Part shown: in pieces, positions 43,325 to 62,290 of the stretch
Numbering within the stretch: position 1 is the stretch's first letter
Layout of the letters: every line of letters begins with the position of its first letter
Assembly (NCBI GenBank): GCA_963748825.1
Contig: CAVVKN010000012.1
Location: forward strand, 64,001 to 128,000
Source of the DNA: Methanotrichaceae archaeon
GTDB taxonomy: Archaea > Halobacteriota > Methanosarcinia > Methanotrichales > Methanotrichaceae
Length of the DNA: 64,000 bases
Reading direction: 5' to 3'
Translations under genes and position numbers: made by a program
Notes under the pieces: generated by a model
What the model saw: the letters and a program-made list of their open reading frames with translations, nothing else
What the model was told of the DNA's origin: nothing
Database searches by the model: none

Positions 43325-43354
43325 TGCAAAAGCGCCTCGGTGGATTGCAAAAGG

Positions 43355-44050: not shown

Positions 44051-44106
44051 TGAAAGGAAGGCGCCTCGCTGATTTGCATGGCAATCGATTACGTCCCTGG
44101 GATCGG

Positions 44107-44260: not shown

Positions 44261-44589
44261 GATTGCTCCCTCGCATACCTCACGATTAATGTGATATCAT
44301 AGGATCTGCTCATATTAATTTGTTCGCATACGAAAAAATGCTTAACGCTGTCTAGAAAAGCATCTAACTCCTTGGTTCCGGCAACTCGCGTTCCCTGACA
44401 TCGTTTGTACTGCACCCAGGCTATATCTGCACCCTCCGGGAGGGCTCTGGTTTTCTTCTTTGTTTCTTCTCCCGCAGATGTAATAGTTTCCTTCACCGTG
44501 CCAGCCATTGGAGAGATAGGTGGTGAGCTTCGGATAACTGGATTGGCGATAGTCTGAACGGCGGCGGGCTGTTCATTGTCGCGTTTCAA
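44257..44589 (-). CDS. Hypothetical ORF or gene fragment inside the oversized spacer
   Basis: 110 open codons beginning in the degenerate repeat; no recognised family. Confidence 0.4.
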   Translation of the reverse strand: MKRDNEQPAAVQTIANPVIRSSPPISPMAGTVKETITSAGEETKKKTRALPEGADIAWVQYKRCQGTRVAGTKELDAFLDSVKHFFVCEQINMSRSYDITLIVRYAREQS

Positions 44590-44734
44590 AACTTGTTCTT
44601 CATGGAAATGGCCATTGTACGTGGCCGACCAGGCGTTCCCGGTCGTACCTGTGGAGTTTCAATCCTTGTTTTCATGGAACTCGCCCTCGGACTCTGGTTC
44701 ATCCTGGGCAATGCCCTTGCAGCCTTGGGGTTTC

Positions 44735-46194
44735 CCATGGAAAACCACACGAAACCAAAATCAGGAGGCGATCTATTCACCACCCCCAGATGGCCTTTTC
44801 TGGCCGACCTTGATCTCAGAAATGTCTGCGATCTCACGCATGAGAGCATTCTTCCGGCTGCTCTCTTTCAGGTGATAAAAGGCATCCACAATTGCAGCGA
44901 CCCGATCCGTTAAATGCTCTTCCTGAAATGAAGGTGCATGGCAGGGCTTATCCTGACTCGATCCCCTCTTTCTGCATTCACCTTCCAGATACAACTCCTG
45001 GTTGATCAGAAGATGATAAATGAGACAGATGAGTTTCCTGGCCACGGCAACAATCGCAACATTACGCTCCTTCTTTTTTATCAATCTCTGGAAGAATCTG
45101 GACAGCGCCGTCTTTTTCATATTTGATATGGTCTGCGCTGCTTGGACAAGTATAACTCTGATGTGCTTGGAACCCCTCTTTGTAATTCCACATTTTTTCT
45201 TCTTGCCTGCAGATTCGTTTTCTCCGGGATTGAGGCCACACCATTTTGCGAGCTGGTCCGGAGTCTTAAAATCACGGTAGTTCCCAATCTCCGACAGTAT
45301 GACCGATGCAGATGTGAATCCAATTCCAGGGATCGACATGACTATGGCCAGATCTTTGCTCTTTTGCTGAACTCCTTTCAGAACCTCAAGGCTTAGCTTC
45401 TCCATTTTGGATTCGAGATTGTCAAGGATTTCCAGAGCATCTATTAAGAGCATTCTGCTTGTATCGTTAAGACCATTTTCAAGTGCTGATCTAATCAGGT
45501 CTTGCTTCTTCCTTATCTTTCCGGAGGGTATGCCTTTCAAGATCTCTTCGATGGGCTTATTTTTAGCAAGACAGTTCAGGATGTATCTGCCGGACTTGCA
45601 GAAAATATCGTCCATGGTAGAACTGAGCTTAACCCCGCTTGATGATAGATATTTATGAATCCGATTCCTGAACTGAGTTCGTGTCTTGACATATCCGGAC
45701 CTGGCTCGGGTCATCATCCTAAGGTCTCGGTCCTCATCGGTAAATACGCGAGATCTTTTGATTTGACCGTTCAAGCAAAGGGTTGCGATTCGGTTTGAGT
45801 CTTTAGAGTCGGATTTGTCATTTGGAACGGTCTTTATCTGCAACGGATTGGCTACAATTGTATCTATGGTTTTGCTCAGAGCATCATAAATCGGCATCCA
45901 ATAGACACCAGTAGCTTCAAATGCCACTTGTTCGCATTTGTTGGCAACCAGCCAGTTGCGGAATCTCTTAAGCTCGGCTTTTGTTGTCCCAAAATTCTCT
46001 CGAATTGTCGGTACATCATCGCCTGTTATTGTGGCAACGATCAGATCTTTATGGACATCTGCTCCGCAAACTCTATCTCTTCGTTTGTTCATACACGTCT
46101 CTGCCTGATATGGGCAGATGATCTTTCCCTGAGATGGGATAATTTCCCATACGCGTTCCACGACGCAGTCCCGTATTCGGGGGGATCTTGGCCT
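44735..46194 (-). mobile_element. IS110-family element copy 1, lacking the terminal 130 bp
   Basis: Starts after spacer+GTTTC (44730-44734). Matches copy 2 up to the internal GTTTC at 46195-46199, where copy 2 begins. Confidence 0.93.
44773..46092 (-). CDS. IS110-family recombinase/transposase, 439 aa
   Basis: DEDD tetrad (GADVHK, FEATG, KSDSKDS), SIPGIG, conserved Ser in GL.P....SAG, A.VAVARKL. Confidence 0.95.
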   Translation of the reverse strand: MNKRRDRVCGADVHKDLIVATITGDDVPTIRENFGTTKAELKRFRNWLVANKCEQVAFEATGVYWMPIYDALSKTIDTIVANPLQIKTVPNDKSDSKDSNRIATLCLNGQIKRSRVFTDEDRDLRMMTRARSGYVKTRTQFRNRIHKYLSSSGVKLSSTMDDIFCKSGRYILNCLAKNKPIEEILKGIPSGKIRKKQDLIRSALENGLNDTSRMLLIDALEILDNLESKMEKLSLEVLKGVQQKSKDLAIVMSIPGIGFTSASVILSEIGNYRDFKTPDQLAKWCGLNPGENESAGKKKKCGITKRGSKHIRVILVQAAQTISNMKKTALSRFFQRLIKKKERNVAIVAVARKLICLIYHLLINQELYLEGECRKRGSSQDKPCHAPSFQEEHLTDRVAAIVDAFYHLKESSRKNALMREIADISEIKVGQKRPSGGGE

Positions 46195-46237
46195 GTTTCC
46201 CATGGAAAACCACACGAAACCAAAATCAGGAGGCGAT

Positions 46238-47557
46238 CTATTCACCACCCCCAGATGGCCTTTTCTGGCCGACCTTGATCTCAGAAATGTCTGCGATCTC
46301 ACGCATGAGAGCATTCTTCCGGCTGCTCTCTTTCAGGTGATAAAAGGCATCCACAATTGCAGCGACCCGATCCGTTAAATGCTCTTCCTGAAATGAAGGT
46401 GCATGGCAGGGCTTATCCTGACTCGATCCCCTCTTTCTGCATTCACCTTCCAGATACAACTCCTGGTTGATCAGAAGATGATAAATGAGACAGATGAGTT
46501 TCCTGGCCACGGCAACAATCGCAACATTACGCTCCTTCTTTTTTATCAATCTCTGGAAGAATCTGGACAGCGCCGTCTTTTTCATATTTGATATGGTCTG
46601 CGCTGCTTGGACAAGTATAACTCTGATGTGCTTGGAACCCCTCTTTGTAATTCCACATTTTTTCTTCTTGCCTGCAGATTCGTTTTCTCCGGGATTGAGG
46701 CCACACCATTTTGCGAGCTGGTCCGGAGTCTTAAAATCACGGTAGTTCCCAATCTCCGACAGTATGACCGATGCAGATGTGAATCCAATTCCAGGGATCG
46801 ACATGACTATGGCCAGATCTTTGCTCTTTTGCTGAACTCCTTTCAGAACCTCAAGGCTTAGCTTCTCCATTTTGGATTCGAGATTGTCAAGGATTTCCAG
46901 AGCATCTATTAAGAGCATTCTGCTTGTATCGTTAAGACCATTTTCAAGTGCTGATCTAATCAGGTCTTGCTTCTTCCTTATCTTTCCGGAGGGTATGCCT
47001 TTCAAGATCTCTTCGATGGGCTTATTTTTAGCAAGACAGTTCAGGATGTATCTGCCGGACTTGCAGAAAATATCGTCCATGGTAGAACTGAGCTTAACCC
47101 CGCTTGATGATAGATATTTATGAATCCGATTCCTGAACTGAGTTCGTGTCTTGACATATCCGGACCTGGCTCGGGTCATCATCCTAAGGTCTCGGTCCTC
47201 ATCGGTAAATACGCGAGATCTTTTGATTTGACCGTTCAAGCAAAGGGTTGCGATTCGGTTTGAGTCTTTAGAGTCGGATTTGTCATTTGGAACGGTCTTT
47301 ATCTGCAACGGATTGGCTACAATTGTATCTATGGTTTTGCTCAGAGCATCATAAATCGGCATCCAATAGACACCAGTAGCTTCAAATGCCACTTGTTCGC
47401 ATTTGTTGGCAACCAGCCAGTTGCGGAATCTCTTAAGCTCGGCTTTTGTTGTCCCAAAATTCTCTCGAATTGTCGGTACATCATCGCCTGTTATTGTGGC
47501 AACGATCAGATCTTTATGGACATCTGCTCCGCAAACTCTATCTCTTCGTTTGTTCAT
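46238..47557 (-). CDS. IS110-family recombinase/transposase
   Basis: Same protein as copy 1; start placed at MNKRRDRV. Confidence 0.95.
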   Translation of the reverse strand: MNKRRDRVCGADVHKDLIVATITGDDVPTIRENFGTTKAELKRFRNWLVANKCEQVAFEATGVYWMPIYDALSKTIDTIVANPLQIKTVPNDKSDSKDSNRIATLCLNGQIKRSRVFTDEDRDLRMMTRARSGYVKTRTQFRNRIHKYLSSSGVKLSSTMDDIFCKSGRYILNCLAKNKPIEEILKGIPSGKIRKKQDLIRSALENGLNDTSRMLLIDALEILDNLESKMEKLSLEVLKGVQQKSKDLAIVMSIPGIGFTSASVILSEIGNYRDFKTPDQLAKWCGLNPGENESAGKKKKCGITKRGSKHIRVILVQAAQTISNMKKTALSRFFQRLIKKKERNVAIVAVARKLICLIYHLLINQELYLEGECRKRGSSQDKPCHAPSFQEEHLTDRVAAIVDAFYHLKESSRKNALMREIADISEIKVGQKRPSGGGE

Positions 47558-47571
47558 ACACGTCTCTGCCT

Positions 47572-47715
47572 GATATGGGCAGATGATCTTTCCCTGAGAT
47601 GGGATAATTTCCCATACGCGTTCCACGACGCAGTCCCGTATTCGGGGGGATCTTGGCCTGTTTCAATCGCGGGATCAAACGTCCTATAAACTTGTCGGCC
47701 TTCACTGCCCATATC
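47572..47715 (-). ncRNA. Putative bridge/seek RNA of the IS110 element
   Basis: Perfect 11-bp closing stem (47572-47582 with 47705-47715) encloses a repeat-matching GAUUGAAAC and donor-matching (AU)GGGAAA. Expression is not shown. Confidence 0.65.
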
Positions 47716-48496
47716 CGGCTTAACGTGAACGGATAACAATATGTGGTTTTCCATCCGTCACGTGTGAGCCCCTGCCTGGGCTCATGGGCGTTTCAATCCT
47801 TGTTTTTGTGGAACTCGCCCTCGGACCTATATTATAGTAATGACTACTATAAGTAAAAATCCGATGTTTCAATCCTTGTTTTTGTGGAACTCGCCCTCGG
47901 ACCCATCTATGCCCAGGAATATATTCGATGTCTTTGAGTTTCAATCCTTGTTTTTGTGGAACTCGCCCTCGGACATTCCCACCTTCGAAATAGACCGAGC
48001 GTTTGAGATTGCGTTTCAATCCTTGTTTTTGTGGAACTCGCCCTCGGACCGACATAATCACCAAGACCGCCCCAATTGACGGCCTGTTTCAATCCTTGTT
48101 TTTGTGGAACTCGCCCTCGGACATTGATTACTTGTTTCATGTTCATTACCTCCCTGCTAGTTTCAATCCTTGTTTTTGTGGAACTCGCCCTCGGACTCCA
48201 AGCGATTGCCTCTGGAGAAGTTAGATCGAATTGTTTCAATCCTTGTTTTTGTGGAACTCGCCCTCGGACCGCAACAGGTGACGACCTTTCCAGCAAAGTT
48301 GAAGCTGGTTTCAATCCTTGTTTTTGTGGAACTCGCCCTCGGACTGGGACACGGCGCTGGTTCTGATGCCGATCTCGTATAGTTTCAATCCTTGTTTTTG
48401 TGGAACTCGCCCTCGGACTATAATTTTGGATTCGTCATTCATGCATCCTCACGGTTTCCCATGGAAAACCACACGAAACCAAAATCAGGAGGCGAT

Positions 48497-49816
48497 CTAT
48501 TCACCACCCCCAGATGGCCTTTTCTGGCCGACCTTGATCTCAGAAATGTCTGCGATCTCACGCATGAGAGCATTCTTCCGGCTGCTCTCTTTCAGGTGAT
48601 AAAAGGCATCCACAATTGCAGCGACCCGATCCGTTAAATGCTCTTCCTGAAATGAAGGTGCATGGCAGGGCTTATCCTGACTCGATCCCCTCTTTCTGCA
48701 TTCACCTTCCAGATACAACTCCTGGTTGATCAGAAGATGATAAATGAGACAGATGAGTTTCCTGGCCACGGCAACAATCGCAACATTACGCTCCTTCTTT
48801 TTTATCAATCTCTGGAAGAATCTGGACAGCGCCGTCTTTTTCATATTTGATATGGTCTGCGCTGCTTGGACAAGTATAACTCTGATGTGCTTGGAACCCC
48901 TCTTTGTAATTCCACATTTTTTCTTCTTGCCTGCAGATTCGTTTTCTCCGGGATTGAGGCCACACCATTTTGCGAGCTGGTCCGGAGTCTTAAAATCACG
49001 GTAGTTCCCAATCTCCGACAGTATGACCGATGCAGATGTGAATCCAATTCCAGGGATCGACATGACTATGGCCAGATCTTTGCTCTTTTGCTGAACTCCT
49101 TTCAGAACCTCAAGGCTTAGCTTCTCCATTTTGGATTCGAGATTGTCAAGGATTTCCAGAGCATCTATTAAGAGCATTCTGCTTGTATCGTTAAGACCAT
49201 TTTCAAGTGCTGATCTAATCAGGTCTTGCTTCTTCCTTATCTTTCCGGAGGGTATGCCTTTCAAGATCTCTTCGATGGGCTTATTTTTAGCAAGACAGTT
49301 CAGGATGTATCTGCCGGACTTGCAGAAAATATCGTCCATGGTAGAACTGAGCTTAACCCCGCTTGATGATAGATATTTATGAATCCGATTCCTGAACTGA
49401 GTTCGTGTCTTGACATATCCGGACCTGGCTCGGGTCATCATCCTAAGGTCTCGGTCCTCATCGGTAAATACGCGAGATCTTTTGATTTGACCGTTCAAGC
49501 AAAGGGTTGCGATTCGGTTTGAGTCTTTAGAGTCGGATTTGTCATTTGGAACGGTCTTTATCTGCAACGGATTGGCTACAATTGTATCTATGGTTTTGCT
49601 CAGAGCATCATAAATCGGCATCCAATAGACACCAGTAGCTTCAAATGCCACTTGTTCGCATTTGTTGGCAACCAGCCAGTTGAGGAATCTCTTAAGCTCG
49701 GCTTTTGTTGTCCCAAAATTCTCTCGAATTGTCGGTACATCATCGCCTGTTATTGTGGCAACGATCAGATCTTTATGGACATCTGCTCCGCAAACTCTAT
49801 CTCTTCGTTTGTTCAT
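48497..49816 (-). CDS. IS110-family recombinase/transposase (FLNW allele)
   Basis: One substitution relative to copies 1-2. Confidence 0.95.
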   Translation of the reverse strand: MNKRRDRVCGADVHKDLIVATITGDDVPTIRENFGTTKAELKRFLNWLVANKCEQVAFEATGVYWMPIYDALSKTIDTIVANPLQIKTVPNDKSDSKDSNRIATLCLNGQIKRSRVFTDEDRDLRMMTRARSGYVKTRTQFRNRIHKYLSSSGVKLSSTMDDIFCKSGRYILNCLAKNKPIEEILKGIPSGKIRKKQDLIRSALENGLNDTSRMLLIDALEILDNLESKMEKLSLEVLKGVQQKSKDLAIVMSIPGIGFTSASVILSEIGNYRDFKTPDQLAKWCGLNPGENESAGKKKKCGITKRGSKHIRVILVQAAQTISNMKKTALSRFFQRLIKKKERNVAIVAVARKLICLIYHLLINQELYLEGECRKRGSSQDKPCHAPSFQEEHLTDRVAAIVDAFYHLKESSRKNALMREIADISEIKVGQKRPSGGGE

Positions 49817-49830
49817 ACACGTCTCTGCCT

Positions 49831-49974
49831 GATATGGGCAGATGATCTTTCCCTGAGATGGGATAATTTCCCATACGCGTTCCACGACGCAGTCCCGTAT
49901 TCGGGGGGATCTTGGCCTGTTTCAATCGCGGGATCAAACGTCCTATAAACTTGTCGGCCTTCACTGCCCATATC
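49831..49974 (-). ncRNA. Putative bridge/seek RNA, copy 3
   Basis: Same sequence as 47572-47715. Confidence 0.65.
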
Positions 49975-50237
49975 CGGCTTAACGTGAACGGATAACAATA
50001 TGTGGTTTTCCATCCGTCACGTGTGAGCCCCTGCCTGGGCTCATGGGCGTTTCAATCCTTGTTTTTGTGGAACTCGCCCTCGGACCACTGCCATCAAGTT
50101 CTAATGGGACCAATTCAATTTTGTTTCAATCCTTGTTTTTGTGGAACTCGCCCTCGGACATATTAGGTGATTTTCATGAAACTATGTATTATATGTTTCC
50201 CATGGAAAACCACACGAAACCAAAATCAGGAGGCGAT

Positions 50238-51557
50238 CTATTCACCACCCCCAGATGGCCTTTTCTGGCCGACCTTGATCTCAGAAATGTCTGCGATCTC
50301 ACGCATGAGAGCATTCTTCCGGCTGCTCTCTTTCAGGTGATAAAAGGCATCCACAATTGCAGCGACCCGATCCGTTAAATGCTCTTCCTGAAATGAAGGT
50401 GCATGGCAGGGCTTATCCTGACTCGATCCCCTCTTTCTGCATTCACCTTCCAGATACAACTCCTGGTTGATCAGAAGATGATAAATGAGACAGATGAGTT
50501 TCCTGGCCACGGCAACAATCGCAACATTACGCTCCTTCTTTTTTATCAATCTCTGGAAGAATCTGGACAGCGCCGTCTTTTTCATATTTGATATGGTCTG
50601 CGCTGCTTGGACAAGTATAACTCTGATGTGCTTGGAACCCCTCTTTGTAATTCCACATTTTTTCTTCTTGCCTGCAGATTCGTTTTCTCCGGGATTGAGG
50701 CCACACCATTTTGCGAGCTGGTCCGGAGTCTTAAAATCACGGTAGTTCCCAATCTCCGACAGTATGACCGATGCAGATGTGAATCCAATTCCAGGGATCG
50801 ACATGACTATGGCCAGATCTTTGCTCTTTTGCTGAACTCCTTTCAGAACCTCAAGGCTTAGCTTCTCCATTTTGGATTCGAGATTGTCAAGGATTTCCAG
50901 AGCATCTATTAAGAGCATTCTGCTTGTATCGTTAAGACCATTTTCAAGTGCTGATCTAATCAGGTCTTGCTTCTTCCTTATCTTTCCGGAGGGTATGCCT
51001 TTCAAGATCTCTTCGATGGGCTTATTTTTAGCAAGACAGTTCAGGATGTATCTGCCGGACTTGCAGAAAATATCGTCCATGGTAGAACTGAGCTTAACCC
51101 CGCTTGATGATAGATATTTATGAATCCGATTCCTGAACTGAGTTCGTGTCTTGACATATCCGGACCTGGCTCGGGTCATCATCCTAAGGTCTCGGTCCTC
51201 ATCGGTAAATACGCGAGATCTTTTGATTTGACCGTTCAAGCAAAGGGTTGCGATTCGGTTTGAGTCTTTAGAGTCGGATTTGTCATTTGGAACGGTCTTT
51301 ATCTGCAACGGATTGGCTACAATTGTATCTATGGTTTTGCTCAGAGCATCATAAATCGGCATCCAATAGACACCAGTAGCTTCAAATGCCACTTGTTCGC
51401 ATTTGTTGGCAACCAGCCAGTTGAGGAATCTCTTAAGCTCGGCTTTTGTTGTCCCAAAATTCTCTCGAATTGTCGGTACATCATCGCCTGTTATTGTGGC
51501 AACGATCAGATCTTTATGGACATCTGCTCCGCAAACTCTATCTCTTCGTTTGTTCAT
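50238..51557 (-). CDS. IS110-family recombinase/transposase (FLNW allele)
   Basis: Same protein as copy 3. Confidence 0.95.
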   Translation of the reverse strand: MNKRRDRVCGADVHKDLIVATITGDDVPTIRENFGTTKAELKRFLNWLVANKCEQVAFEATGVYWMPIYDALSKTIDTIVANPLQIKTVPNDKSDSKDSNRIATLCLNGQIKRSRVFTDEDRDLRMMTRARSGYVKTRTQFRNRIHKYLSSSGVKLSSTMDDIFCKSGRYILNCLAKNKPIEEILKGIPSGKIRKKQDLIRSALENGLNDTSRMLLIDALEILDNLESKMEKLSLEVLKGVQQKSKDLAIVMSIPGIGFTSASVILSEIGNYRDFKTPDQLAKWCGLNPGENESAGKKKKCGITKRGSKHIRVILVQAAQTISNMKKTALSRFFQRLIKKKERNVAIVAVARKLICLIYHLLINQELYLEGECRKRGSSQDKPCHAPSFQEEHLTDRVAAIVDAFYHLKESSRKNALMREIADISEIKVGQKRPSGGGE

Positions 51558-51571
51558 ACACGTCTCTGCCT

Positions 51572-51715
51572 GATATGGGCAGATGATCTTTCCCTGAGAT
51601 GGGATAATTTCCCATACGCGTTCCACGACGCAGTCCCGTATTCGGGGGGATCTTGGCCTGTTTCAATCGCGGGATCAAACGTCCTATAAACTTGTCGGCC
51701 TTCACTGCCCATATC
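51572..51715 (-). ncRNA. Putative bridge/seek RNA, copy 4
   Basis: Same sequence as 47572-47715. Confidence 0.65.
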
Positions 51716-54700
51716 CGGCTTAACGTGAACGGATAACAATATGTGGTTTTCCATCCGTCACGTGTGAGCCCCTGCCTGGGCTCATGGGCGTTTCAATCCT
51801 TGTTTTTGTGGAACTCGCCCTCGGACTTCTTATCCATCCAAGAAGCTGCCCGCCAAGGCTCTGTTTCAATCCTTGTTTTTGTGGAACTCGCCCTCGGACA
51901 ATCGCATAATGGCGGAAAACGCGGCAATCCTGGGTTTCAATCCTTGTTTTTGTGGAACTCGCCCTCGGACTCCTCAGTGCATTGCATCAGCTTCCAAGCC
52001 TTTCCAGTTTCAATCCTTGTTTTTGTGGAACTCGCCCTCGGACCCGCGATGCTAGCCAAGCTCTCTGATATGATTATCTGGGTTTCAATCCTTGTTTTTG
52101 TGGAACTCGCCCTCGGACTTTTGGACTAACTGCTCCGATAAATCTCCTATAGAAGTTTCAATCCTTGTTTTTGTGGAACTCGCCCTCGGACGGCGGGAAA
52201 GTCGGCTGCCGGCATGGGCGATTTTGATGTTTCAATCCTTGTTTTTGTGGAACTCGCCCTCGGACCGGAGTAAGAGATTCGCGGTTATCAAATCCCAAAC
52301 AGTTTCAATCCTTGTTTTTGTGGAACTCGCCCTCGGACTTGGGGTTGGTCATGGGGAATGCAGCTCTTGGGGGAGTTTCAATCCTTGTTTTTGTGGAACT
52401 CGCCCTCGGACAAGATAGATGAGGTTTGAGCATGAGAGGCACACTGCGTTTCAATCCTTGTTTTTGTGGAACTCGCCCTCGGACTGCGGTCTCAAACGCC
52501 AGGCCGAGCCTGGTTGATGTGTTTCAATCCTTGTTTTTGTGGAACTCGCCCTCGGACAACAAGAAGTAGCCGATGCAGTCAAAGTATATGCGGGTTTCAA
52601 TCCTTGTTTTTGTGGAACTCGCCCTCGGACCCAACCAGATTAGACCATTGGTGTCCATAATTTGCAGTTTCAATCCTTGTTTTTGTGGAACTCGCCCTCG
52701 GACATCTAGATGATGCAGATTACCAGAGCCGGATTTAACCAGTTTCAATCCTTGTTTTTGTGGAACTCGCCCTCGGACCTGTTTTGCAAGCCCGAAGATG
52801 GCGGCGCGGATGGAGTGGTTTCAATCCTTGTTTTTGTGGAACTCGCCCTCGGACGTACTTTTCTGTCCTGAAGATCGTGCGCATGCGATAGTTTCAATCC
52901 TTGTTTTTGTGGAACTCGCCCTCGGACCACAATTATCCAGAACGGTGTCTCCTTCGTTGGTAGTTTCAATCCTTGTTTTTGTGGAACTCGCCCTCGGACA
53001 AAGATATGATGCTCAGATCAAAGACCTATTACATAGTTTCAATCCTTGTTTTTGTGGAACTCGCCCTCGGACTTGTCATATCTTCCAAGCATATTCCAAC
53101 GTTCTTGATGTTTCAATCCTTGTTTTTGTGGAACTCGCCCTCGGACTACGAGCGGCACCGTTGGAGATACCTTCTATATATGTTTCAATCCTTGTTTTTG
53201 TGGAACTCGCCCTCGGACAGCAAAAAGGACTTGCAACAAGCGGAACTATTAGAGTTTCAATCCTTGTTTTTGTGGAACTCGCCCTCGGACACTCCCGCAA
53301 TCGCTTCACAAATTCCGGCCATTCTCAGAGTTTCAATCCTTGTTTTTGTGGAACTCGCCCTCGGACTGTAGATGCTCAGATGGCATGATCTCATAGGTTG
53401 TGACAGTTTCAATCCTTGTTTTTGTGGAACTCGCCCTCGGACGCTGGAGCCTCGTATTGGCATCACACGAACTCATCGTTTCAATCCTTGTTTTTGTGGA
53501 ACTCGCCCTCGGACTATCCGCAGTGCCATTTATGGCAGTCTCGTATCAGGGTTTCAATCCTTGTTTTTGTGGAACTCGCCCTCGGACTTCATGCCGAACC
53601 GCTATAGCCCATGAACATCCTAAGTTTCAATCCTTGTTTTTGTGGAACTCGCCCTCGGACAAGGAATCTTCCCGTGCATTCGCAGTGATTAGGATGTTTC
53701 AATCCTTGTTTTTGTGGAACTCGCCCTCGGACTGCGAACTGGTCAGAAGAAAGAAGAACATCGTTTGTGTTTCAATCCTTGTTTTTGTGGAACTCGCCCT
53801 CGGACGTTACTCTTACGGCATCCAGTCCCGGTATTTGGGGGTTTCAATCCTTGTTTTTGTGGAACTCGCCCTCGGACGGTCGAAACATCGGGGCTCCAAG
53901 ATTGCAGAAGATGTTTCAATCCTTGTTTTTGTGGAACTCGCCCTCGGACATTATATCGCAGCTTGATCCCTCAGCTAGAAGTAATGGTTTCAATCCTTGT
54001 TTTTGTGGAACTCGCCCTCGGACTAGCTATCTGGATGAATTGAATCAGTACGTATCTGAGTTTCAATCCTTGTTTTTGTGGAACTCGCCCTCGGACACTC
54101 AGCACACACCCACACAGACGACGGGATAGATCGTTTCAATCCTTGTTTTTGTGGAACTCGCCCTCGGACACATAACCCTATTACCCGTGATCGGTTATAG
54201 TTGGCGTTTCAATCCTTGTTTTTGTGGAACTCGCCCTCGGACGCAATTTACCTCTCGCGTCCATCTTAGCATGGAACGGTTTCAATCCTTGTTTTTGTGG
54301 AACTCGCCCTCGGACGCTGATTGCGGCGCGTGGTTCATGATTAGGTGATCAGTTTCAATCCTTGTTTTTGTGGAACTCGCCCTCGGACTGTCATGCCATA
54401 GCATCTATGATCTGTCATCGAGTCAGGTTTCAATCCTTGTTTTTGTGGAACTCGCCCTCGGACGCTGGCATGAGTTCTCGATGGCATGGGGGTAGGTAAG
54501 TTTCAATCCTTGTTTTTGTGGAACTCGCCCTCGGACCTATCAGAAGGGGCCGGGTGGTTGGGGATACTGGCAGTTTCAATCCTTGTTTTTGTGGAACTCG
54601 CCCTCGGACTCTGTTTTCAGATATGCCTTATTGGTACATTCGTTAGTTTCAATCCTTGTTTTTGTGGAACTCGCCCTCGGACGTGAGACACAGTCGATGC

Positions 54701-54905
54701 AACTGTATCTTGAGACAAACTGTTTCAATCCTTGTTTTTGTGGAACTCGCCCTCGGACCTTGGAATAAGCAGAGATCGAACGATTGATGGAGGAAGTTTC
54801 AATCCTTGTTTTTGTGGAACTCGCCCTCGGACAGCATTTGCGGAAAAGACAGGCAACAGAAATATCTGGTTTCAATCCTTGTTTTTGTGGAACTCGCCCT
54901 CGGAC

Positions 54906-55064: not shown

Positions 55065-55721
55065 CTATTTCAGTTTTGTAACCGCCCCGTAACCTCTGGA
55101 GACTGACTTGCCCAGCCCCAGGAAGTCCGGGATGGCAAAGGTTGTGGTGAACTCTCCTCGTATCCCCGTGACTTTTGTCCCCTTCAGCAGGCAGATCTCA
55201 TCCTGCATCCCGCCCACCTCCAGCCGAATGTGCTCTTTGGCCACGTAGCCCAGCCCCTTGGAGGCGGAGAGGATGTTGCCCACCAGGATTCTTCTCAGCA
55301 GATCCTTTCTTTCCTCTCTGTTTGCATTTAAATATTTGGGGTAGTTGTCCTGGCTAAGTGCCAGCCAGGGCGTGGCAAAACTGTAGCTTTGGATCTTTTC
55401 GCAGCATCCGAACTCCTCGCTCTTCAGGGTAATGCCGCGCTCCATGATGCTGTACTTGCTCTCTCCCAATTTTATCTCATCGAATTTATCATAGATCTCT
55501 TTCAGGACCTCTGCCCCCTCGTTGATGCCAAGGACCAGGGGACTTCCCTCCAGCATCTTGTACTGGATGAGAGGATATTTGTAGATCAGCTTGTCCGTCA
55601 CATGCTGGTGCAGCAGCGCATGCTCATTGAAGCTGGTGGCAAAGAAGCCGCGCAGCTTCGATGCGTCCCCGTGCATGGGCGCGTCCGAGTGCAGGGTGAG
55701 GCGGAGGATTTTGAGGATCAT
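55065..55721 (-). CDS. cas6: Cas6b-type crRNA processing endoribonuclease
   Basis: KLRGFF, LHQH, Y.YPLIQYK, F.TPWLAL.Q.NY, Gly-rich loop GLGKSVSRGYG. Confidence 0.92.
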   Translation of the reverse strand: MILKILRLTLHSDAPMHGDASKLRGFFATSFNEHALLHQHVTDKLIYKYPLIQYKMLEGSPLVLGINEGAEVLKEIYDKFDEIKLGESKYSIMERGITLKSEEFGCCEKIQSYSFATPWLALSQDNYPKYLNANREERKDLLRRILVGNILSASKGLGYVAKEHIRLEVGGMQDEICLLKGTKVTGIRGEFTTTFAIPDFLGLGKSVSRGYGAVTKLK

Positions 55722-55723
55722 GG

Positions 55724-55951
55724 CTATCCTTTCTTATCGAAGAACTCTTCACGACTAATCCCCGCCTCTTTTAGAATCTCATTCAACAACCCTTTGGGAA
55801 CATCATAACCATGAAATGGAACCACCGTTGACTTTTTGGTTTCAGGGTTGTGGTAAAAATGATGGCTGCCGCTGATTCTCTCCAGCTCAAAACCGCATTT
55901 CTCAAGTATTCTAGCCAGCTTTTCCGGCGGGATGCAGGGTAGTTTAGCCAT
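55724..55951 (-). CDS. hicA: HicA-family toxin (mRNA interferase)
   Basis: LEK.GF...R.SGSH, VPFH.....GLL..ILKEAG. Confidence 0.92.
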   Translation of the reverse strand: MAKLPCIPPEKLARILEKCGFELERISGSHHFYHNPETKKSTVVPFHGYDVPKGLLNEILKEAGISREEFFDKKG

Positions 55952-55986
55952 GCCACTCAGGAACATGCTTCAAGTTGCTTAAAAAT

Positions 55987-56226
55987 TTAAGCATTTGCCT
56001 CGACTGCAATCGTGCATATCATCGAATCATCGGATTCTATGGGCACTTCTTCGCCGCGGGCGATCATGCAGGCAATAAAGCCCTCAATTGCCTCTTTTGC
56101 CATTGCCAGCGCCTCTTCAACCGTTCGCCCGAAGGTCAGGCAACCCGGCAGTGAAGGCACAATCACCGTATAAGTTCCGTCTTCCTCTTTTCGGAGCATA
56201 ATTTTATAGCGTAATGTCTTCATCAT
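55987..56226 (-). CDS. hicB: Short HicB-family antitoxin
   Basis: EEDG.Y.V.VPSLPGC.TFG.TVEEA..MAKEAI. Confidence 0.92.
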   Translation of the reverse strand: MMKTLRYKIMLRKEEDGTYTVIVPSLPGCLTFGRTVEEALAMAKEAIEGFIACMIARGEEVPIESDDSMICTIAVEANA

Positions 56227-56272
56227 AGTGGTCTCCTATCCTATATTGATATTTGATGCTGTCTTTGATCTT

Positions 56273-56341
56273 GCGGCTTTGCGGGCTCCCGCGCATGGAC
56301 GCGTGCGAGGCGGGGTGAAGCGGAGATTTTTTGGGAAACAT
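56273..56341 (-). pseudogene. cas6: Decayed 5' fragment of cas6
   Basis: Aligns with 55652-55721 (cccgcgcatggacgcgtgcgag-gcggggtgaagcggag vs cccgtgcatgggcgcgtccgagtgcagggtgaggcggag). Retains an ATG 16 nt after the cas3 stop. Confidence 0.75.
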
Positions 56342-56357
56342 ACCGCAAGCTCCCAAC

Positions 56358-58793
56358 TTAAATGATCATGGAGCCCCCTCCGGCTCCCGCTCGCATGAAG
56401 CCCGTTTCCAAATCGTAGTAGTTGGGCAGCTCATCTCTTGAAATATAACCCATATCGGAATCTTCAGCGACCAGGTTATGAGCGTATTTCTCCGGTGCGG
56501 AGATCACATACTCGCTGAAATCCTTCTTTATCTTGAGATACTTTTTCGTCCTCTCCAGATGATTCTTTTCAGACTGCATATCCAGGTATTGTTTCCAAAT
56601 CCCTGCAGCGTTATCGTCCAACTCGACAAAGACATTCACTTTGGGATAGTCCTCTTCGATGAGCTTGAAGTTCTTGTTCAGATCCTTAAACGCTAATCCG
56701 GCAATGCAGTCCAGGTTATCCTTCGACTCTTTCTCGCCCATGCCTCTCTTCACGGCTTTGAAATATTTGTTATTAAGGTCCAGGAATTCTGATTCTTTAA
56801 TTGGCCCTTTGATCTGCTTCAAAATGTCCAGCGTCTTGCTTATCAAGAATGGATCGTAAATATATTTATAAAATTCTTTTCGATCATCTTTCAAAATGAA
56901 AATCGATACTATGCCCTTTTCGTCTTTGGCGGAGTGTCTATTGCATCTGCCCGCTACCTGGTTGATCGAGTCTAGTGGTGCAAAGTCCCTGTAAACGATA
57001 TCTGCATCAATATCTACGCCAGCTTCTATGAGCTGAGTGCTGACAATGACCTTTCTTTTTCTCGGTGATTCTTTGGATTCTCTTATCTCATTTATCCGCG
57101 TCAACCTCTCCTTTGGGATTACATTTGTGGAGAGGAAAAATCTCTTTGTATTCTCCAGTTCCAATCCTTGAACGAATTTATAAATCTCTTGAGCCGAGCC
57201 TATCGTGTTTAGAACGATCAAGAAATCTTTCTCTTTCTTCTGGAGCAAGTCCTCATTAAGCAAGGCTTTGAATTCATCTAGGGTCAGTGCTCTCTCAATT
57301 CTTGGTATGAGCTCAATTCTATTCAAGCCCCGGAAGTATTCCTCTTTCCTTTGTGCTATCTCCTTGATCTCTCCTTTTGCTTCATCGAAGATGAGCGGCT
57401 GGGTCGCAGTGATGAAGACAACGTAAGTGTTGAACTTCTCGCAAAGCAGCTTCAATGAATCGTGTATCAGCAGCCAGTAATGGTGAGGCACAGCCTGGAC
57501 CTCATCCAGAATGATTATGGAGTTAGCAAGCTTGTTGAATTTGCGAAGCTGTTTATTCCTGTTGGAAAAGAGTGTGTTAAAGAGCTGCCAGAATGTGGTT
57601 ACAATTATCTCTGCATTCCAGCCTTCCAGGAGCAGCAGGCTTTTATCGACTTCGTACTCTTTCTCCTCGGTCTTGTACTTCACATCCGAAAGATGGTGAT
57701 GTTTGAGAAGTAGCCGGGAATCTTTGGTGTCTCCTCCCACAACATCATCAAAGACCTTGTAGTTTTGATCGATTATGCTCAGAAAAGGCAAAGCGTAGAT
57801 TATTCTGGGCTTGATTTTTCGCTCATTCTCCAATCGCTCTCTCAGTTTCAGGGAAAGGGAAAGAGCGGTGAGCGTCTTGCCCGTGCCTGTGGGAACATTC
57901 AGGGAGAGGATCTTATCGTCCAGGTTCCAATTTTTGATTCTTTCCACAGCCTCTTCATATATCTGATTCCTGAGGCCATTGATATTGTCCTGATTGGATG
58001 AAAAGCCCTTTGCATCCCTATAGTCATCCACCAGCTTTGATGAAAGGCCCAGCCGGTCCAATTTGATTCCATCTAGTCCTGCATCAGTCTTGTCAGCATC
58101 TAAGAGTGCAGAGTAAATAAACTGAGATAAAAAATACGGGTAAAGATCGCTTTTTTCACTCAAGTCCCTAATGAAACGCTTCTCCTTTCTGCCAATATCT
58201 TTTGTCGCATCTTTTAAAATATAATCAATAATATTATCCACGTCGAGTTTTAAGCTCATATTCTCTTTAGACAGAAGCAGTGCCAGTATTTCTCTGATCT
58301 CTGCCATGTCAATGGTGTTTATTTGTTCTACCGCCACCCTCAGAATTTTGTCCTTGTCGGCATCGATTTCCTTAATTTCATCCATTGCATTTGGTAGATT
58401 TCCGTGATGCCTCTTCACTGCCAGGAAAGACAAGATGGGCAAGTATTCAGCCAAACTACCTCTTCGCCCTGTCTGACTTAAGTATTCCTTTATCACTGCA
58501 TACGTAAAGAAAGCCGAGAGCAGGCCGTGATGAGTGTTGTCCTTGGCTTTGAGAGACTTCTTTTTATTCTCATCGGTCTCAATAATGTAATCCTGGAAAA
58601 ATTTCGTAGCTTTTCCCAGGTCGTGCGTCACACCCATGAGGTAAGCAGCGTCTGTCAAGAGATCCTTGTCATCTATGTTTAGAGATTTGTCTGTAACAGT
58701 TTTCCTGCTCAATTGCCCTACTCTGCTCAAGTGATCCACCAGGCGTTTATCCGGGTGAGACTTGAGCTTAAAGGAATACGATTCGCTCGCCAT
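56358..58793 (-). CDS. cas3: Cas3 HD nuclease-helicase
   Basis: L.DHL, HDLGK, HH, DAD; PTGTGKT, DEVQ, TAT, STQLIEAGVDID, QVAGRCNR. Confidence 0.97.
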   Translation of the reverse strand: MASESYSFKLKSHPDKRLVDHLSRVGQLSRKTVTDKSLNIDDKDLLTDAAYLMGVTHDLGKATKFFQDYIIETDENKKKSLKAKDNTHHGLLSAFFTYAVIKEYLSQTGRRGSLAEYLPILSFLAVKRHHGNLPNAMDEIKEIDADKDKILRVAVEQINTIDMAEIREILALLLSKENMSLKLDVDNIIDYILKDATKDIGRKEKRFIRDLSEKSDLYPYFLSQFIYSALLDADKTDAGLDGIKLDRLGLSSKLVDDYRDAKGFSSNQDNINGLRNQIYEEAVERIKNWNLDDKILSLNVPTGTGKTLTALSLSLKLRERLENERKIKPRIIYALPFLSIIDQNYKVFDDVVGGDTKDSRLLLKHHHLSDVKYKTEEKEYEVDKSLLLLEGWNAEIIVTTFWQLFNTLFSNRNKQLRKFNKLANSIIILDEVQAVPHHYWLLIHDSLKLLCEKFNTYVVFITATQPLIFDEAKGEIKEIAQRKEEYFRGLNRIELIPRIERALTLDEFKALLNEDLLQKKEKDFLIVLNTIGSAQEIYKFVQGLELENTKRFFLSTNVIPKERLTRINEIRESKESPRKRKVIVSTQLIEAGVDIDADIVYRDFAPLDSINQVAGRCNRHSAKDEKGIVSIFILKDDRKEFYKYIYDPFLISKTLDILKQIKGPIKESEFLDLNNKYFKAVKRGMGEKESKDNLDCIAGLAFKDLNKNFKLIEEDYPKVNVFVELDDNAAGIWKQYLDMQSEKNHLERTKKYLKIKKDFSEYVISAPEKYAHNLVAEDSDMGYISRDELPNYYDLETGFMRAGAGGGSMII

Positions 58794-59472
58794 TCCCGAC
58801 CTCCCAAAGCTCTTTTACCTTCGCTTTGATTTTCTTTCCGTTCCTTTCAAACAGAATCTCGCGGTAGTCGGTTACCTCTCTTGCTTCTCCCATCTCGCCT
58901 GGCATCACTTCTGAGAAGTATTCCTTTCCTTCCTCGAAATCCGGCTCAAGAAGGCAATTACCCGGCACCACGCTATCTATATCCTGGACATCTTCTCCTG
59001 AACTCTTCAGACCAAACTCTCCTATGAACTTGAAGTTGCAGATGAGCTCGCTTAGTCCAAGACACGGAGTGTATACAGACTGATGGCTGGTGAGCAAGTC
59101 TTTCAGCTTTTTATATAATTGCTCATCGGAGTGAGAGAAATAAATTCTGTACTTCGGATCTTTGACGAACTCGAATCTGATCTGGGTTCTGTTCTTGATC
59201 AGATGCATCTTAATTGCGCTCTTGGTATCAATCAGGTTCTCTCCAATCCTCACTTTTTTTACAGGCGCCAGGATTTTGCAGCCGATTTTGGCATCAACCT
59301 TAAAGAAGTGCCTGAAATACTCCGTTTTGTCCAGACCGACGATGGCCCCGATCAGCCCTGAGAGAGCAGTTCGGGGCGGGAAAGAATAGGTGAGTGGAGA
59401 GCTGGTAGAGTAATTCTTCCTGAAGTGGGCGTAGTCCCCCCACACATCGAATACTATTACTCTCTCCGGCAT
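58768..59472 (-). CDS. cas5: Type I-B Cas5
   Basis: FDVWGDYAHFRK...SSPLTY.FPPRTAL.GLIGAI.G; TPCLG. Confidence 0.95.
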   Translation of the reverse strand: MPERVIVFDVWGDYAHFRKNYSTSSPLTYSFPPRTALSGLIGAIVGLDKTEYFRHFFKVDAKIGCKILAPVKKVRIGENLIDTKSAIKMHLIKNRTQIRFEFVKDPKYRIYFSHSDEQLYKKLKDLLTSHQSVYTPCLGLSELICNFKFIGEFGLKSSGEDVQDIDSVVPGNCLLEPDFEEGKEYFSEVMPGEMGEAREVTDYREILFERNGKKIKAKVKELWEVGNGERIVFL

Positions 59473-59479
59473 CTGGACC

Positions 59480-60400
59480 TCAGAACGCAATTGGCTTTAT
59501 GGCTATGCCGGTAGCTGCTGCCAATCCTTCAATTGGGAAACCGGCCCCTTCTTTGCAGAACTTAATCCTGCCGTCCACGCAAATCTCAATATCCTTGATT
59601 GAGCCCTTTTCCGCAGCAAGTTTCTTGACCAACTCTGATATCTCAAGCTGGTAATCTACGGTGTCACGAATGTTCTCATGAGGCATCTCGGTTACCAGCT
59701 TTAGCATCTTATCTAGATCCCCAATATGATAGTTCTCTTTGCTGTAATTCACTTTGAGGAGCAACCTTGGAACCTGTCCTGCTTTGGATCTGGAAATCAG
59801 GCTCTTGGTTCCATTCCAAATGCCTTCTAGCAAGAGCTTTAAATCATCCTCGGTAAGATGAGTGTGTTTGGCAGCGTTCTCGTTTACGATGCCATAAAAG
59901 GAGATAAGCGAATAGGGCAGAAAGTCCTCTTCTCTAAACGTTGCCTGCTTAGAACCCTCCTTAGAGGCAAAGGCTCCGGTTCCCTTAATATGCATCATAG
60001 TAACACGATGGAGCGAACGGCCCATCTTAAACTGCACTGGACCGGTATAGATTATCGAGTCCTCTTTTAAAGGTATTACTCCACCGAAGAGACGAATATC
60101 GATGCACTCGCCCAAAATTTTCTCGGCATCATTACCAAAGTTGCCTGCTCTCATCTTTCCATCTTGGATAAGACCTTTCTCTTGGTCGTAGACTACTTCC
60201 CTTACAAAGATCTCAAGGCCTTTGAAATTGTGAAGGTAGTCCCGGATGGTCCTTTTCAATCTGACATCTGTTACGAGGTTGATGCCGGTCTCTTCATCAA
60301 TCCGAGGCTTGTTCTCGTCCATTGGATCTCCGTTAGGATTTCCGTCTCTAATGTCGTAGATAAAGAGAATTTCTGATCTGTTCTTAACTTCCTCGTTCAT
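59480..60400 (-). CDS. cas7: Type I-B Cas7 (Csh2)
   Basis: GNPNGDP..EN.PRID, VTDVRLKRTIRDY, DIRLFG, TGPVQF. Confidence 0.96.
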   Translation of the reverse strand: MNEEVKNRSEILFIYDIRDGNPNGDPMDENKPRIDEETGINLVTDVRLKRTIRDYLHNFKGLEIFVREVVYDQEKGLIQDGKMRAGNFGNDAEKILGECIDIRLFGGVIPLKEDSIIYTGPVQFKMGRSLHRVTMMHIKGTGAFASKEGSKQATFREEDFLPYSLISFYGIVNENAAKHTHLTEDDLKLLLEGIWNGTKSLISRSKAGQVPRLLLKVNYSKENYHIGDLDKMLKLVTEMPHENIRDTVDYQLEISELVKKLAAEKGSIKDIEICVDGRIKFCKEGAGFPIEGLAAATGIAIKPIAF

Positions 60401-60402
60401 TT

Positions 60403-62274: not shown

Positions 62275-62290
62275 CCAAAATCACCATCAA

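What the first reader, a model, noticed from the sequence alone, without database searches (positions are those of the whole stretch)
47572..47715. Candidate bridge RNA whose target loop encodes the CRISPR repeat end
Seen (minus-strand RNA, folded by eye): an 11-bp stem GAUAUGGGCAG/CUGCCCAUAUC closes two domains. Domain 1 is a GGCC/GGCC stem with an internal loop carrying GACAAGUUU (47696-47688; only GUUU matches the core side, as expected if that flank is a variable spacer) and GAUUGAAAC (47668-47660; 9/9 to the repeat). Domain 2 is bounded by GAUC/GAUC and carries GCGU, AUGGGAAA (47615-47608) and GGGAAA (47594-47589), matching the predicted donor junction GGGC-GTTTC-CCAT. Known: IS621 bridge RNAs and IS1111 seekRNAs use such paired loops for target and donor. 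Inference: a one-sided, repeat-specific guide. The donor-loop assignment is less certain because AUGGGA can also form a hairpin.
Basis: partly seen in the sequence, partly recalled or inferred. Interest (0 to 1): 0.85.

Follow-up and report, generated by a model that had tools for sequence, protein, structure and literature searches.

The report
Bridge RNA aimed at CRISPR repeats
This stretch encodes the guide RNA of a jumping gene in a methane-producing archaeon; the guide matches the last bases of the host's CRISPR repeats, which explains why copies of the element sit inside the CRISPR array.

Summary
Window 47572-47715 (minus strand) is the core of a guide ("bridge") RNA. It lies in the 235-nt left end of a 1,595-bp IS110-family insertion sequence. 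Four copies sit in a type I-B CRISPR array, each directly after a repeat end ...GATTGAAAC.

Evidence from about 90 related copies in metagenomes and genomes:
- The 3' strand of loop 1 (GAUUGAAAC) changes together with the left flank.
- The 5' strand (GACAAGUUU) changes together with the right flank, as its reverse complement.
- AUGGGAAA in loop 2 changes together with the element's right end.
- The crossover core is AAA.

- The guide is two-sided by design. Only in CRISPR arrays is the right half unmatched.
- It is not specific to one repeat. It matches the (G)ATTGAAAC end shared by at least four repeat families, and about half of insertions lie outside arrays.
- The guide order is the reverse of IS621.
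- No right-donor guide was found.

The DNA that encodes the guide is itself hit by further copies, giving nested and truncated elements. I rate this a new variant of a known kind.

The parts
47572..47715 (-). Core of the bridge RNA: an 11-bp closing stem encloses the target-binding and donor-binding domains
   Evidence: Folds. Consensus structure and pair counts on 60 homologues. RNA-library contigs cover it, e.g. X1 record 4 spans 47442-47727 with 0 differences.
47555..47789 (-). Non-coding left end (235 nt) of IS copy 2, with two 5' hairpins followed by the bridge RNA core
   Evidence: Copy boundaries. The right end has only 43 nt after the stop codon.
47688..47696 (-). Right-target guide, GACAAG + UUU (5' strand of loop 1). 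Its reverse complement is AAA + CTTGTC.
   Evidence: It changes together with right flanks in relatives. Examples: L065 predicts AAAGTCAAC and the flank is AAAGTCAAA; L068 predicts AAAGATGAC and the flank is AAAGATGAT.
47660..47668 (-). Left-target guide, GAUUG + AAA + C (3' strand of loop 1). It is identical to the repeat end.
   Evidence: 260 of 315 positions equal the left flank; shuffles average 171.9 and 0 of 5000 reach the observed value. Matching pairs of guide and flank include TAAAAAAAC, TATATAAAC, GACTGAAAC, CCCTAAAC and GGCTAAAAC.
47608..47615 (-). Left-donor guide, AUGGG + AAA. It is identical to the element's right end plus core.
   Evidence: 63 of 64 events have the guide equal to the right end, across four variants: ATGGG 54, ATGCG 5, ATGAG 3, ATGTG 1.
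46238..47554 (-). Recombinase gene of copy 2 (438 aa; DEDD RuvC-like domain plus Tnp domain)
   Evidence: D11, E58, D94, D97 and S293 are invariant in 16 homologues.
46195..47789 (-). IS copy 2 (1,595 bp). Its left end abuts the repeat at 47790-47826 and its right end abuts truncated copy 1.
44730..46199 (-). IS copy 1, lacking its first 125 nt. The break lies exactly at its own GATTGAAAC guide DNA.
   Evidence: It is identical to copy 2 over 1,470 nt, and the two copies share GAAAC at the junction.
48454..50048 (-). IS copy 3, between the repeat at 50049-50085 and the spacer at 48419-48453
   Evidence: It has one difference from copy 2 (position 47424).
50195..51789 (-). IS copy 4, between the repeat at 51790-51826 and the spacer at 50160-50194
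44656..54905 (-). CRISPR array of 55 repeats of 37 nt, read on the minus strand. The last repeat (44656-44692) is degenerate.
   Evidence: Rfam CRISPR-DR7 scores 36 bits, just under its gathering score of 37.
55065..62944 (-). Type I-B cas genes upstream of the array: cas6b, cas3, cas5, cas7, cas8b (TM1802 family) and cas4
   Evidence: Pfam matches.

Best explanation
The region encodes the bridge (guide) RNA of a 1,595-bp IS110-family insertion sequence of a Methanothrix-like archaeon. The RNA is read from the element's left end, upstream of the recombinase gene.

How the guides work:
- Loop 1 binds the target. Its 3' strand GAUUG-AAA-C has the same sequence as the left target plus the AAA core, so it pairs with the bottom strand. 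[quoted passage not shown]
- Loop 2 carries AUGGG-AAA, which has the same sequence as the element's right end plus core, and recognises the donor junction.
- The DEDD/serine recombinase then exchanges strands at AAA.

Why CRISPR arrays are hit: every repeat ends in GATTG-AAA-C, so each repeat is a left half-site. The element inserts there with the spacer side unmatched. This restores an intact repeat on its left and puts its own end in front of the next spacer.

What is shown and what is inferred: the anatomy, the co-variation of three guides with the flanks, and the insertion sites are shown. RNA-protein binding, the chemistry and the circular donor are inferred from the IS621 and IS1111 literature.
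For: - Recombinase family: (IS621 chain 8wt6, E 5.6e-8).
- Copies in the window: four copies, each directly after ...GATTGAAAC.
- Left-target guide against left flank: 260 of 315 positions match, shuffles average 171.9, 0 of 5000 reach the observed value.
- Right-target guide against right flank: 162 of 366 match, shuffles average 103.7, 0 of 5000. Without the first position: 117 of 305 against 77.9, 0 of 5000.
- Left-donor guide equals the right end in 63 of 64 events, over four variants.
- Co-variation inside a CRISPR context: one repeat family ends AATTGAAAC in L048, whose IS guide is GATTGAAAC, and AACTGAAAC in L076, whose guide is GACTGAAAC.
- Core is AAA: right junctions read CATGGG-AAA-G... 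in clades whose 5' loop strand reads ...C-UUU.
- Conserved fold: 93-94% of cells are paired, against 22-46% when the 3' partners are slid by 1-3 columns.
- The guide DNA acts as a target: L032 has a copy nested right after another copy's internal guide, and the window's copy 2/copy 1 junction and L049 show the matching right junction.
- Short elements with only the first 44 nt of the left end and about 40 nt of the right end are found in 4 of 6 loci inspected. They would have to be moved by a full copy.
- Contigs from RNA libraries of four studies cover the region.
Against: - No guide for the right donor side was found. The diagonal scan gave only inconsistent registers.
- Structural co-variation is thin. 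Only 4-5 of 31-35 pairs change on both sides, and most stems never vary.
- Two mutually exclusive pairings of UCCC (47604-47601) cannot be separated. GGGA/UCCC is 99.2% paired with one compensatory pair. The CCC...GGG hairpin is 77-98% paired and is the pairing kept in L062.
- The right-flank match is moderate even outside arrays (2.0-2.5 of 5 positions).
- The order of the two target guides is the reverse of IS621 (passages seen).
- No Rfam family matches at E up to 1.
- The RNA evidence is contigs only. They show no ends and no strand, and DNA carry-over is possible.
- No empty site was found for comparison.
Confidence: 0.88

Rival explanations
1. The recombinase protein itself recognises ATTGAAAC in DNA. 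The internal GATTGAAAC would then be an att-like DNA site or a captured piece of repeat, not an RNA guide.
For: The internal copy is used as a DNA target. Short inverted repeats (CCCATG) at both ends could be protein sites.
Against: The internal 9-mer changes in step with the flank in at least 10 different guide classes, while the recombinase stays 59-100% identical. It lies 117-125 nt inside the element, not at the junction where an attP-like core would lie. A second segment, on the other loop strand, tracks the other flank as its complement. That pattern is what RNA pairing to both DNA strands predicts.
Confidence: 0.04
2. The structure is only a 5' untranslated leader that controls recombinase translation or stability. 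Its similarity to the target would be a by-product.
For: The closing stem ends 18 nt before the ATG at 47554. Most stems are invariant, as in a regulatory leader.
Against: A leader does not explain three separate segments that change together with the left flank, the right flank and the element's right end.
Confidence: 0.03
3. It is a bridge RNA, but CRISPR arrays are hit only because they hold most copies of a short site. There is no adaptation to CRISPR.
For: In the own genome 55 of 81 GATTGAAAC sites are repeats of this array. Three to four insertions in repeats against none in the 21 other free sites is what site numbers alone would give. 29 of 59 events show no array in the flanks held. 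Complete-like genome G035 has 2 of 6 copies in an array.
Against: The ATTGAAAC guide is kept in RNAs whose recombinases are only 59-60% identical to the window's (L083, L086-L088). Among the 38 of 60 distinct RNAs that carry this guide, the right-target guide has 13 different 6-mers. I chose those rows by the guide itself, so only the variability of the right guide is informative. Array insertions are 30 of 59 for this guide and 1 of 30 for other guides. Four repeat families are used.
Confidence: 0.45

Closest known systems
IS621 / IS110-group bridge RNA (Durrant et al. 2024, PMC11208160; Hiraizumi et al. 2024, PMC11208158; I saw passages of both)
   Same: - The recombinase has the DEDD RuvC-like and Tnp domains.
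- The guide RNA is encoded in a long left end upstream of the gene.
- It has two loop domains.
- Each target flank is read on a different strand, with the core included in both pairings.
- A donor guide matches the element's end.
   Different: - The order in the target loop is reversed. Here the 5' strand pairs with the top strand (right target) and the 3' strand with the bottom strand (left target).
- The core is AAA (3 nt), not CT.
- A common 11-bp stem closes both domains.
- No right-donor guide was found.
- The ends carry a 6-7-bp inverted repeat.
- The protein is only distantly related to IS621 (E 5.6e-8).
- The host is an archaeon.
IS1111-type seekRNA (Siddiquee et al. 2024, PMC11187229; I saw the abstract and passages)
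   Same: The segment complementary to the top strand comes before the segment that matches it. The ends carry inverted repeats close to the termini.
   Different: In IS1111 elements the non-coding region usually lies downstream of the gene. Here it lies upstream, with only 43 nt after the stop codon. I did not determine which subgroup the recombinase belongs to.
Tn7-like transposons that use CRISPR repeats as attachment sites (Chacon Machado and Peters 2025, PMC11837452; I saw the abstract and passages)
   Same: These are mobile elements that land in CRISPR arrays in one orientation, leave the repeat intact and insert at the spacer side.
   Different: They have unrelated machinery (a TnsD-like protein reads the DNA) and occur in cyanobacteria. 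Here an RNA guide of 9-10 nt reads the repeat end.
Half-match recombination by IS621 (bioRxiv 10.64898/2026.08.31.748434; I saw the abstract only)
   Same: A substrate that matches only half of the guide can be recombined. This fits insertion after a repeat with an unmatched spacer side.
   Different: That was shown in a cell-free system for IS621 excision and off-target insertion. Here it would be the main natural route into arrays, which is not tested.

Membership tests
IS110-family bridge RNA (IS621 type) | Encoded in the non-coding end next to a gene with DEDD_Tnp_IS110 and Transposase_20 domains | tested here: met
   PF01548 at E 1.5e-21 and PF02371 at E 5.9e-26. NF033542 scores 257.9 bits against a cut-off of 140. 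The left end is 235 nt and the right end 43 nt.
IS110-family bridge RNA (IS621 type) | Target loop whose two strands change together with the left and right target flanks on opposite DNA strands | tested here: met
   Left: 260 of 315 against a shuffle mean of 171.9. Right: 162 of 366 against 103.7. In both cases 0 of 5000 shuffles reach the observed value.
IS110-family bridge RNA (IS621 type) | The 5' strand of the loop is the left guide (pairs with the bottom strand) and the 3' strand is the right guide | tested here: not met
   The order is reversed. GACAAGUUU (5' strand) is the complement of core plus right flank. GAUUGAAAC (3' strand) equals left flank plus core. The IS621 order is taken from the text seen.
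IS110-family bridge RNA (IS621 type) | Donor loop with left and right donor guides that match the joined ends | tested here: inconclusive
   The left-donor guide is met (63 of 64). No right-donor guide was found.
IS110-family bridge RNA (IS621 type) | A short core shared by target and donor and included in the guides | tested here: met
   AAA is present at both junctions of every copy and in all three guides.
IS110-family bridge RNA (IS621 type) | The RNA binds the recombinase and is required for recombination | not testable with these tools
   Only RNA-library contigs that cover the region are available.
IS110-family bridge RNA (IS621 type) | Match to a curated covariance model | tested here: inconclusive
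   Apart from the CRISPR repeats, the only Rfam match at E up to 1 in 43000-56000 is a chance-level one outside the element (mir-1910, 43959-44039, 22 bits against 70, E 0.79). I do not know whether Rfam 15 holds a bridge RNA family.
IS1111-type seekRNA element | Non-coding region with the guide RNA downstream of the transposase gene | tested here: not met
   Only 43 nt follow the stop codon, and the guide lies upstream.
IS1111-type seekRNA element | The top-strand complement comes before the bottom-strand complement in the RNA | tested here: met
   The rule is taken from the text seen.
IS1111-type seekRNA element | Sub-terminal inverted repeats of 7-17 bp | tested here: inconclusive
   The left end reads C-G-CCCATG-AG and the right end reads C-CATGGG. 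That is a 6-7-bp inverted repeat at the lower limit. The range is quoted from the text seen.

The most novel reading that the evidence does not exclude
A clade of archaeal IS110 elements has specialised on the (G)ATTGAAAC end shared by many CRISPR repeats. By my recollection this is the part kept as the 8-nt 5' handle of mature crRNAs.
- It recombines by the left half-site alone, so that any spacer may follow.
- It always lies in the direction of pre-crRNA transcription. Its bridge RNA and recombinase mRNA can therefore be made from the CRISPR leader promoter, and perhaps released by Cas6b cleavage 8 nt before the element.
- It reshapes arrays: the spacer behind it loses its handle, arrays of different repeat types are joined (L012, L030), and miniature copies are seeded.
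In short, an RNA-guided mobile element would use the RNA-guided immune locus as its safe harbour and expression platform.
Probability: 0.3. Interest if true: 0.8.

Novelty: new variant of a known kind. Interest (0 to 1): 0.62.

Why it matters
Bridge recombinases are being developed as programmable genome-writing tools. This family offers four things.
- **A different architecture.** It is a natural system with reversed guide order, a 3-nt core, one closing stem and no obvious right-donor guide. That widens the known design space.
- **Natural half-site use.** Insertion that needs only about 9-10 matched bases on one side bears on off-target rules.
- **A cost of the mechanism.** A guide identical to the target makes the element's own DNA a target.
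- **An effect on CRISPR arrays.** An RNA-guided element repeatedly colonises and rearranges arrays in Methanothrix relatives, which are important methanogens. The left end was found in 58 of 105 genomes of the family.

The four literature searches I ran returned no paper reporting IS110 elements or bridge RNAs aimed at CRISPR repeats.

Tried and rejected
- **Right-donor guide.** I scanned every RNA position for complementarity to AAA plus the first 9 nt of the left end in 15 donor classes. Recurrent hits at the 3' half of the CCC...GGG hairpin need G-T wobbles and shifting registers. Hits at the closing stem (UAUGGGC) and at UUAUGGG do not change with the donor. I therefore rejected all of them as evidence.
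GCGU/ACGC is an almost invariant hairpin stem. GGGAAA becomes GGGUUU, GGAUUU or GGGAUA in clades with the same right end.
- **AUGGGA/UCCCAU hairpin.** It is lost where the donor guide is AUGCG, AUGAG or AUGUG.
- **A five-copy 'element' carrying GGATTGAAAC in the own genome.** It turned out to be the start of the 23S rRNA genes behind a tRNA, not a mobile element.
- **Empty-site search.** The stretch spacer-repeat-spacer next to copy 3 found only the repeat part in 5 of 58 other genomes of the genus, and the spacers in none.
- **Subgroup placement.** A plasmid search gave only 'IS110 family' names. IS4321 and IS5075 match only the C-terminal 27% of the protein. No IS621 sequence was available to build a tree, so the subgroup is left open.
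- **Parsing error.** One row (L070, counted as 'in arrays') is an error of my script, because its left flank is too short. I count 1 of 30, not the printed 2 of 31.
- **Rows left out of the flank statistics.** W_c2, L032, L033 and L049 are nested or tandem copies. L044 carries a different element. L055, L059, L075 and L014 lack an anchor. L056, L057, L071, L077 and L078 have no upstream sequence. L015-L019 are distant or partial.
- **First hand-in.** I added the field and sent the same report again.

Full report
**What is in the window**

The window carries a CRISPR array of 55 repeats of 37 nt at 44656-54905. Just beyond its high-coordinate end lie type I-B cas genes on the minus strand: cas6b, cas3, cas5, cas7, a TM1802-type cas8b and cas4. 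Read on the minus strand the repeat ends ...AAGGATTGAAAC, and the last, degenerate repeat is at 44656-44692. The array is therefore read on the minus strand.

Four copies of one 1,595-bp element interrupt the array, all on the minus strand:
- Copy 2: 46195-47789.
- Copy 3: 48454-50048.
- Copy 4: 50195-51789.
- Copy 1: 44730-46199, which lacks its first 125 nt.

The full copies differ at one position (47424). Each left end (GCCCATGAG...) follows a repeat end directly. Each right end (...CCATGGGAAAC) is followed by a spacer.

The element encodes a 438-aa protein with the two Pfam domains of IS110 recombinases. It passes the NCBIfam model 'IS110 family RNA-guided transposase'. It is distantly similar to the solved IS621 and ISCro4 recombinases. 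D11, E58, D94, D97 and S293 are invariant in 16 homologues. S293, in the motif NESAGK, aligns with the YESGSS stretch of IS621. I take it to be the catalytic serine, which is an inference. Relatives of the element come from Methanothrix, Methanotrichaceae and Methanosarcinales genome bins.

**The observation**

The predicted fold has the 11-bp closing stem, the GGCC/GGCC stem and a second domain. It folds better than all but 1-2 of 200 shuffles.

**Test by relatives**

I collected 11 loci from genomes, 80 from metagenomes (recombinase identity 59-93%) and further loci from genomes of the same family. In these the left-end RNA can be aligned and the flanks differ.

- **Left-target guide.** The 3' strand of loop 1 always equals the left flank plus AAA. 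Examples of guide and flank: TAAAAAAAC/TAAAAAAAC (L060, L061), TATATAAAC/TATATAAAC (L062-L065), GACTGAAAC/GACTGAAAC (L067), CCCTAAAC (L073, L089 and others), ACCTAAAC (L081), GCCCTAAAC (L091) and GGCTAAAAC (L099). Over 63 distinct insertion events, 260 of 315 positions agree. Shuffled pairings average 171.9, and none of 5000 reaches the observed value.
- **Right-target guide.** The 5' strand of loop 1, read as its reverse complement, tracks the right flank. L065 predicts AAAGTCAAC and the flank is AAAGTCAAA. L068 predicts AAAGATGAC against AAAGATGAT. L062 predicts AAAGCGAA against AAAGCGGA. L089 predicts AAAGGATGAC against AAAGGATGGG. Within the window's own clade, L010 and L005 match 8 of 9. 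Overall 162 of 366 positions agree against a shuffle mean of 103.7, with 0 of 5000 shuffles as high.
- **Left-donor guide.** AUGGG-AAA in the second domain equals the element's right end in 63 of 64 events. It follows the right end when that changes to ATGCG, ATGAG or ATGTG.
- **Caveat.** The shuffles do not keep relatedness. However, the events are separate insertions, and the guide classes recur with different flanks.

**Core and boundaries**

In clades whose right flank starts with G, the right junction reads CATGGG-AAA-G while the left junction reads ...AAA-C-A.... The exchanged core is therefore AAA, and the C after it belongs to the element. All 15 donor classes start with C. The trailing C of the left-target guide matches the element's first base in every clade. 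It matches the right flank only in the window's clade. This may act like the 'handshake' bases described for IS621 (passages seen), which is an inference.

**Architecture**

On 60 distinct RNAs the consensus keeps four elements:
- the closing stem;
- the basal stem of loop 1;
- an apical hairpin in loop 1 (GGGAC...GAUCCC);
- the GCGUC...GAACGC hairpin.

GGGA (47637-47634) pairing with UCCC (47604-47601) is 99.2% paired, with one compensatory pair (AU 48, GC 11). With that pairing the donor domain mirrors the target domain: stem, apical hairpin, and the guide on the 3' strand. A competing CCC...GGG hairpin also has support, and L062 keeps it by changes on both sides. I cannot decide between the two. 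Few pairs vary, so the structure rests more on conservation than on co-variation.

**How this differs from IS621**

- **Guide order.** In IS621 the 5' strand of each loop pairs with the bottom strand and the 3' strand with the top strand. Here the order in the target loop is reversed. The seekRNA paper describes that order for IS1111-type elements, whose RNA lies downstream of the gene.
- **Mixed features.** This element combines the upstream position typical of the IS110 group with the IS1111-like order and a 6-7-bp inverted repeat at its ends.
- **No right-donor guide.** None emerged from the scan.

**CRISPR arrays as targets**

The window's clade carries the guide (G)AUUGAAAC. Of 59 distinct, non-nested insertion events of this clade, 30 have further copies of the 30 nt before the element at about 72-76-bp spacing in the flanks held. 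An earlier count on fewer loci gave 22 of 42. For other guides the figure is 1 of 30, after removing one parsing error.

Four repeat families are used:
- the window's type, Rfam DR7 (16 events);
- ...AAAGNCGTGGCCCAATTGAAAC (12 events);
- a DR60 type (1 event);
- ...CCCGATGAAAAGGGAAYTGAAAC (2 events).

In the last family, the variant ending AACTGAAAC (L076) hosts an element whose guide reads GACUGAAAC.

Inside arrays the right flank matches the right-target guide at chance beyond the first C (1.5 of 5). Outside arrays the match is 2.0 of 5, and in other clades 2.5 of 5. In arrays only the left half-site is therefore used. This fits the 'half-match' behaviour reported for IS621 (abstract seen).

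Whether this is adaptation or site abundance is open. In the own genome 55 of 81 GATTGAAAC sites are repeats. Five more lie in the element's own guide DNA. The other 21 are all empty, and they include sites in the 23S rRNA genes. In complete-like genomes 2 of 6 copies (G035) and 2 of 3 copies (G075) lie in arrays, and in the multi-contig bin G083 (82% complete) 3 of 3 do.

**Self-targeting**

The left-target guide has the sequence of the target, so the DNA that encodes it is itself a target.
- L032 shows a copy inserted right after the internal guide of another copy.
- The window's junction between copy 2 and copy 1 (CCATGGGAAAC|AGGCC...) and L049 show the matching right junction.
- L014 has a deletion that starts right after the internal guide.

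There are two possible origins for the window's arrangement. One is a nested insertion followed by loss of the duplicated 125 nt. The other is recombination between the joined ends of a tandem pair (as seen in L033) and the nearby internal site. Both are inferences.

**Consequences for the array (inference)**

- The repeat to the left is restored, because the element supplies the final C.
- The spacer to the right is now preceded by ...GGGAAAC instead of the full repeat, so its crRNA should be lost.
- The three occupied repeats are numbers 43, 45 and 54 of 55 counted from the cas side.
- The element points in the direction of array transcription.

Contigs from RNA libraries of four studies cover the bridge RNA. 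Some run from the left end into foreign flanks, including a repeat of the second family. Contigs cannot show ends or strand, and DNA carry-over is possible, so this is weak support for expression.

**Literature**

- NCBI already names a 93%-identical protein 'IS110 family RNA-guided transposase'. The element as such is therefore a recognised kind.
- The listings of four searches showed no paper on IS110 elements or bridge RNAs aimed at CRISPR repeats.
- The nearest concept is a Tn7-like family that uses CRISPR repeats as attachment sites.
- IS110-family ISC1229 of Sulfolobus carries binding sites for the CRISPR-repeat-binding protein Cbp1 (passage seen). This may be a related phenomenon and is only a lead.
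The target catalogues of Durrant et al. and of the 2026 survey may already hold this family.

**Verdict**

It is a new variant of a known kind and of solid interest to people who work on bridge recombinases and on CRISPR array dynamics.

Noticed in passing
L120, L123, L124, L125 (each about 1495-1590); also L030:18-57 and L055:1686-1725: Miniature elements of about 85-90 bp, made of the first 44 nt of the left end plus about 40 nt of the right end (...GTTTTCCATGGGAAAC). They have no gene and no bridge RNA. Several lie after CRISPR repeats. They would have to be moved by a full copy. Many family genomes hold several hits that cover only left-end positions 1-44.
   Followed up: partly
L012:56-2928 and L030:1-3361: The element has one CRISPR repeat family on its left (DR60 type in L012, the 'GTGGCTCGATTGAAAC' type in L030) and DR7-type repeats on its right. 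This suggests either recombination between copies in different arrays or arrays lying in tandem.
   Followed up: partly
L014:1343-2127: A degenerate copy with an internal deletion that begins right after the internal GATTGAAAC and ends before AUCAUCUGCCC, with GAAA on both sides.
   Followed up: no
own genome C23:216127 (minus strand), outside the window: GGATTGAAACTTGTG is a near-complete two-sided match to the guides (the predicted right flank is CTTGTC) and is unoccupied. A truncated copy (first 312 nt) lies about 6 kb away at C23:222045-222357.
   Followed up: no
own genome C5:3029, C7:86312, C10:32548, C18:147495: GGATTGAAAC also occurs near the start of each 23S rRNA gene. None of these sites is occupied.
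   Followed up: yes
L044:about 40-200: A second, different IS110-type left end whose loop carries GUCACAAAAC. It lies after a flank ending ...GATACAAAC, so it is another guide class of the same architecture.
   Followed up: no
L073, L089, L090, L092, L093, L095 flanks: The CCCTAAAC-guided clade repeatedly sits in one conserved, partly palindromic site (GCGGCCACCCCACCCTAAA|GGATGGGGTATGCTTCGGGCCGC). This looks like a repeated intergenic element rather than a CRISPR repeat.
   Followed up: no
window 14797-22565: Long tandem repeats of 294-327 nt (5.7-5.9 copies, 93-99% matches), and a 315-nt repeat at 14797-15508. This is probably a gene with repeated domains.
   Followed up: no
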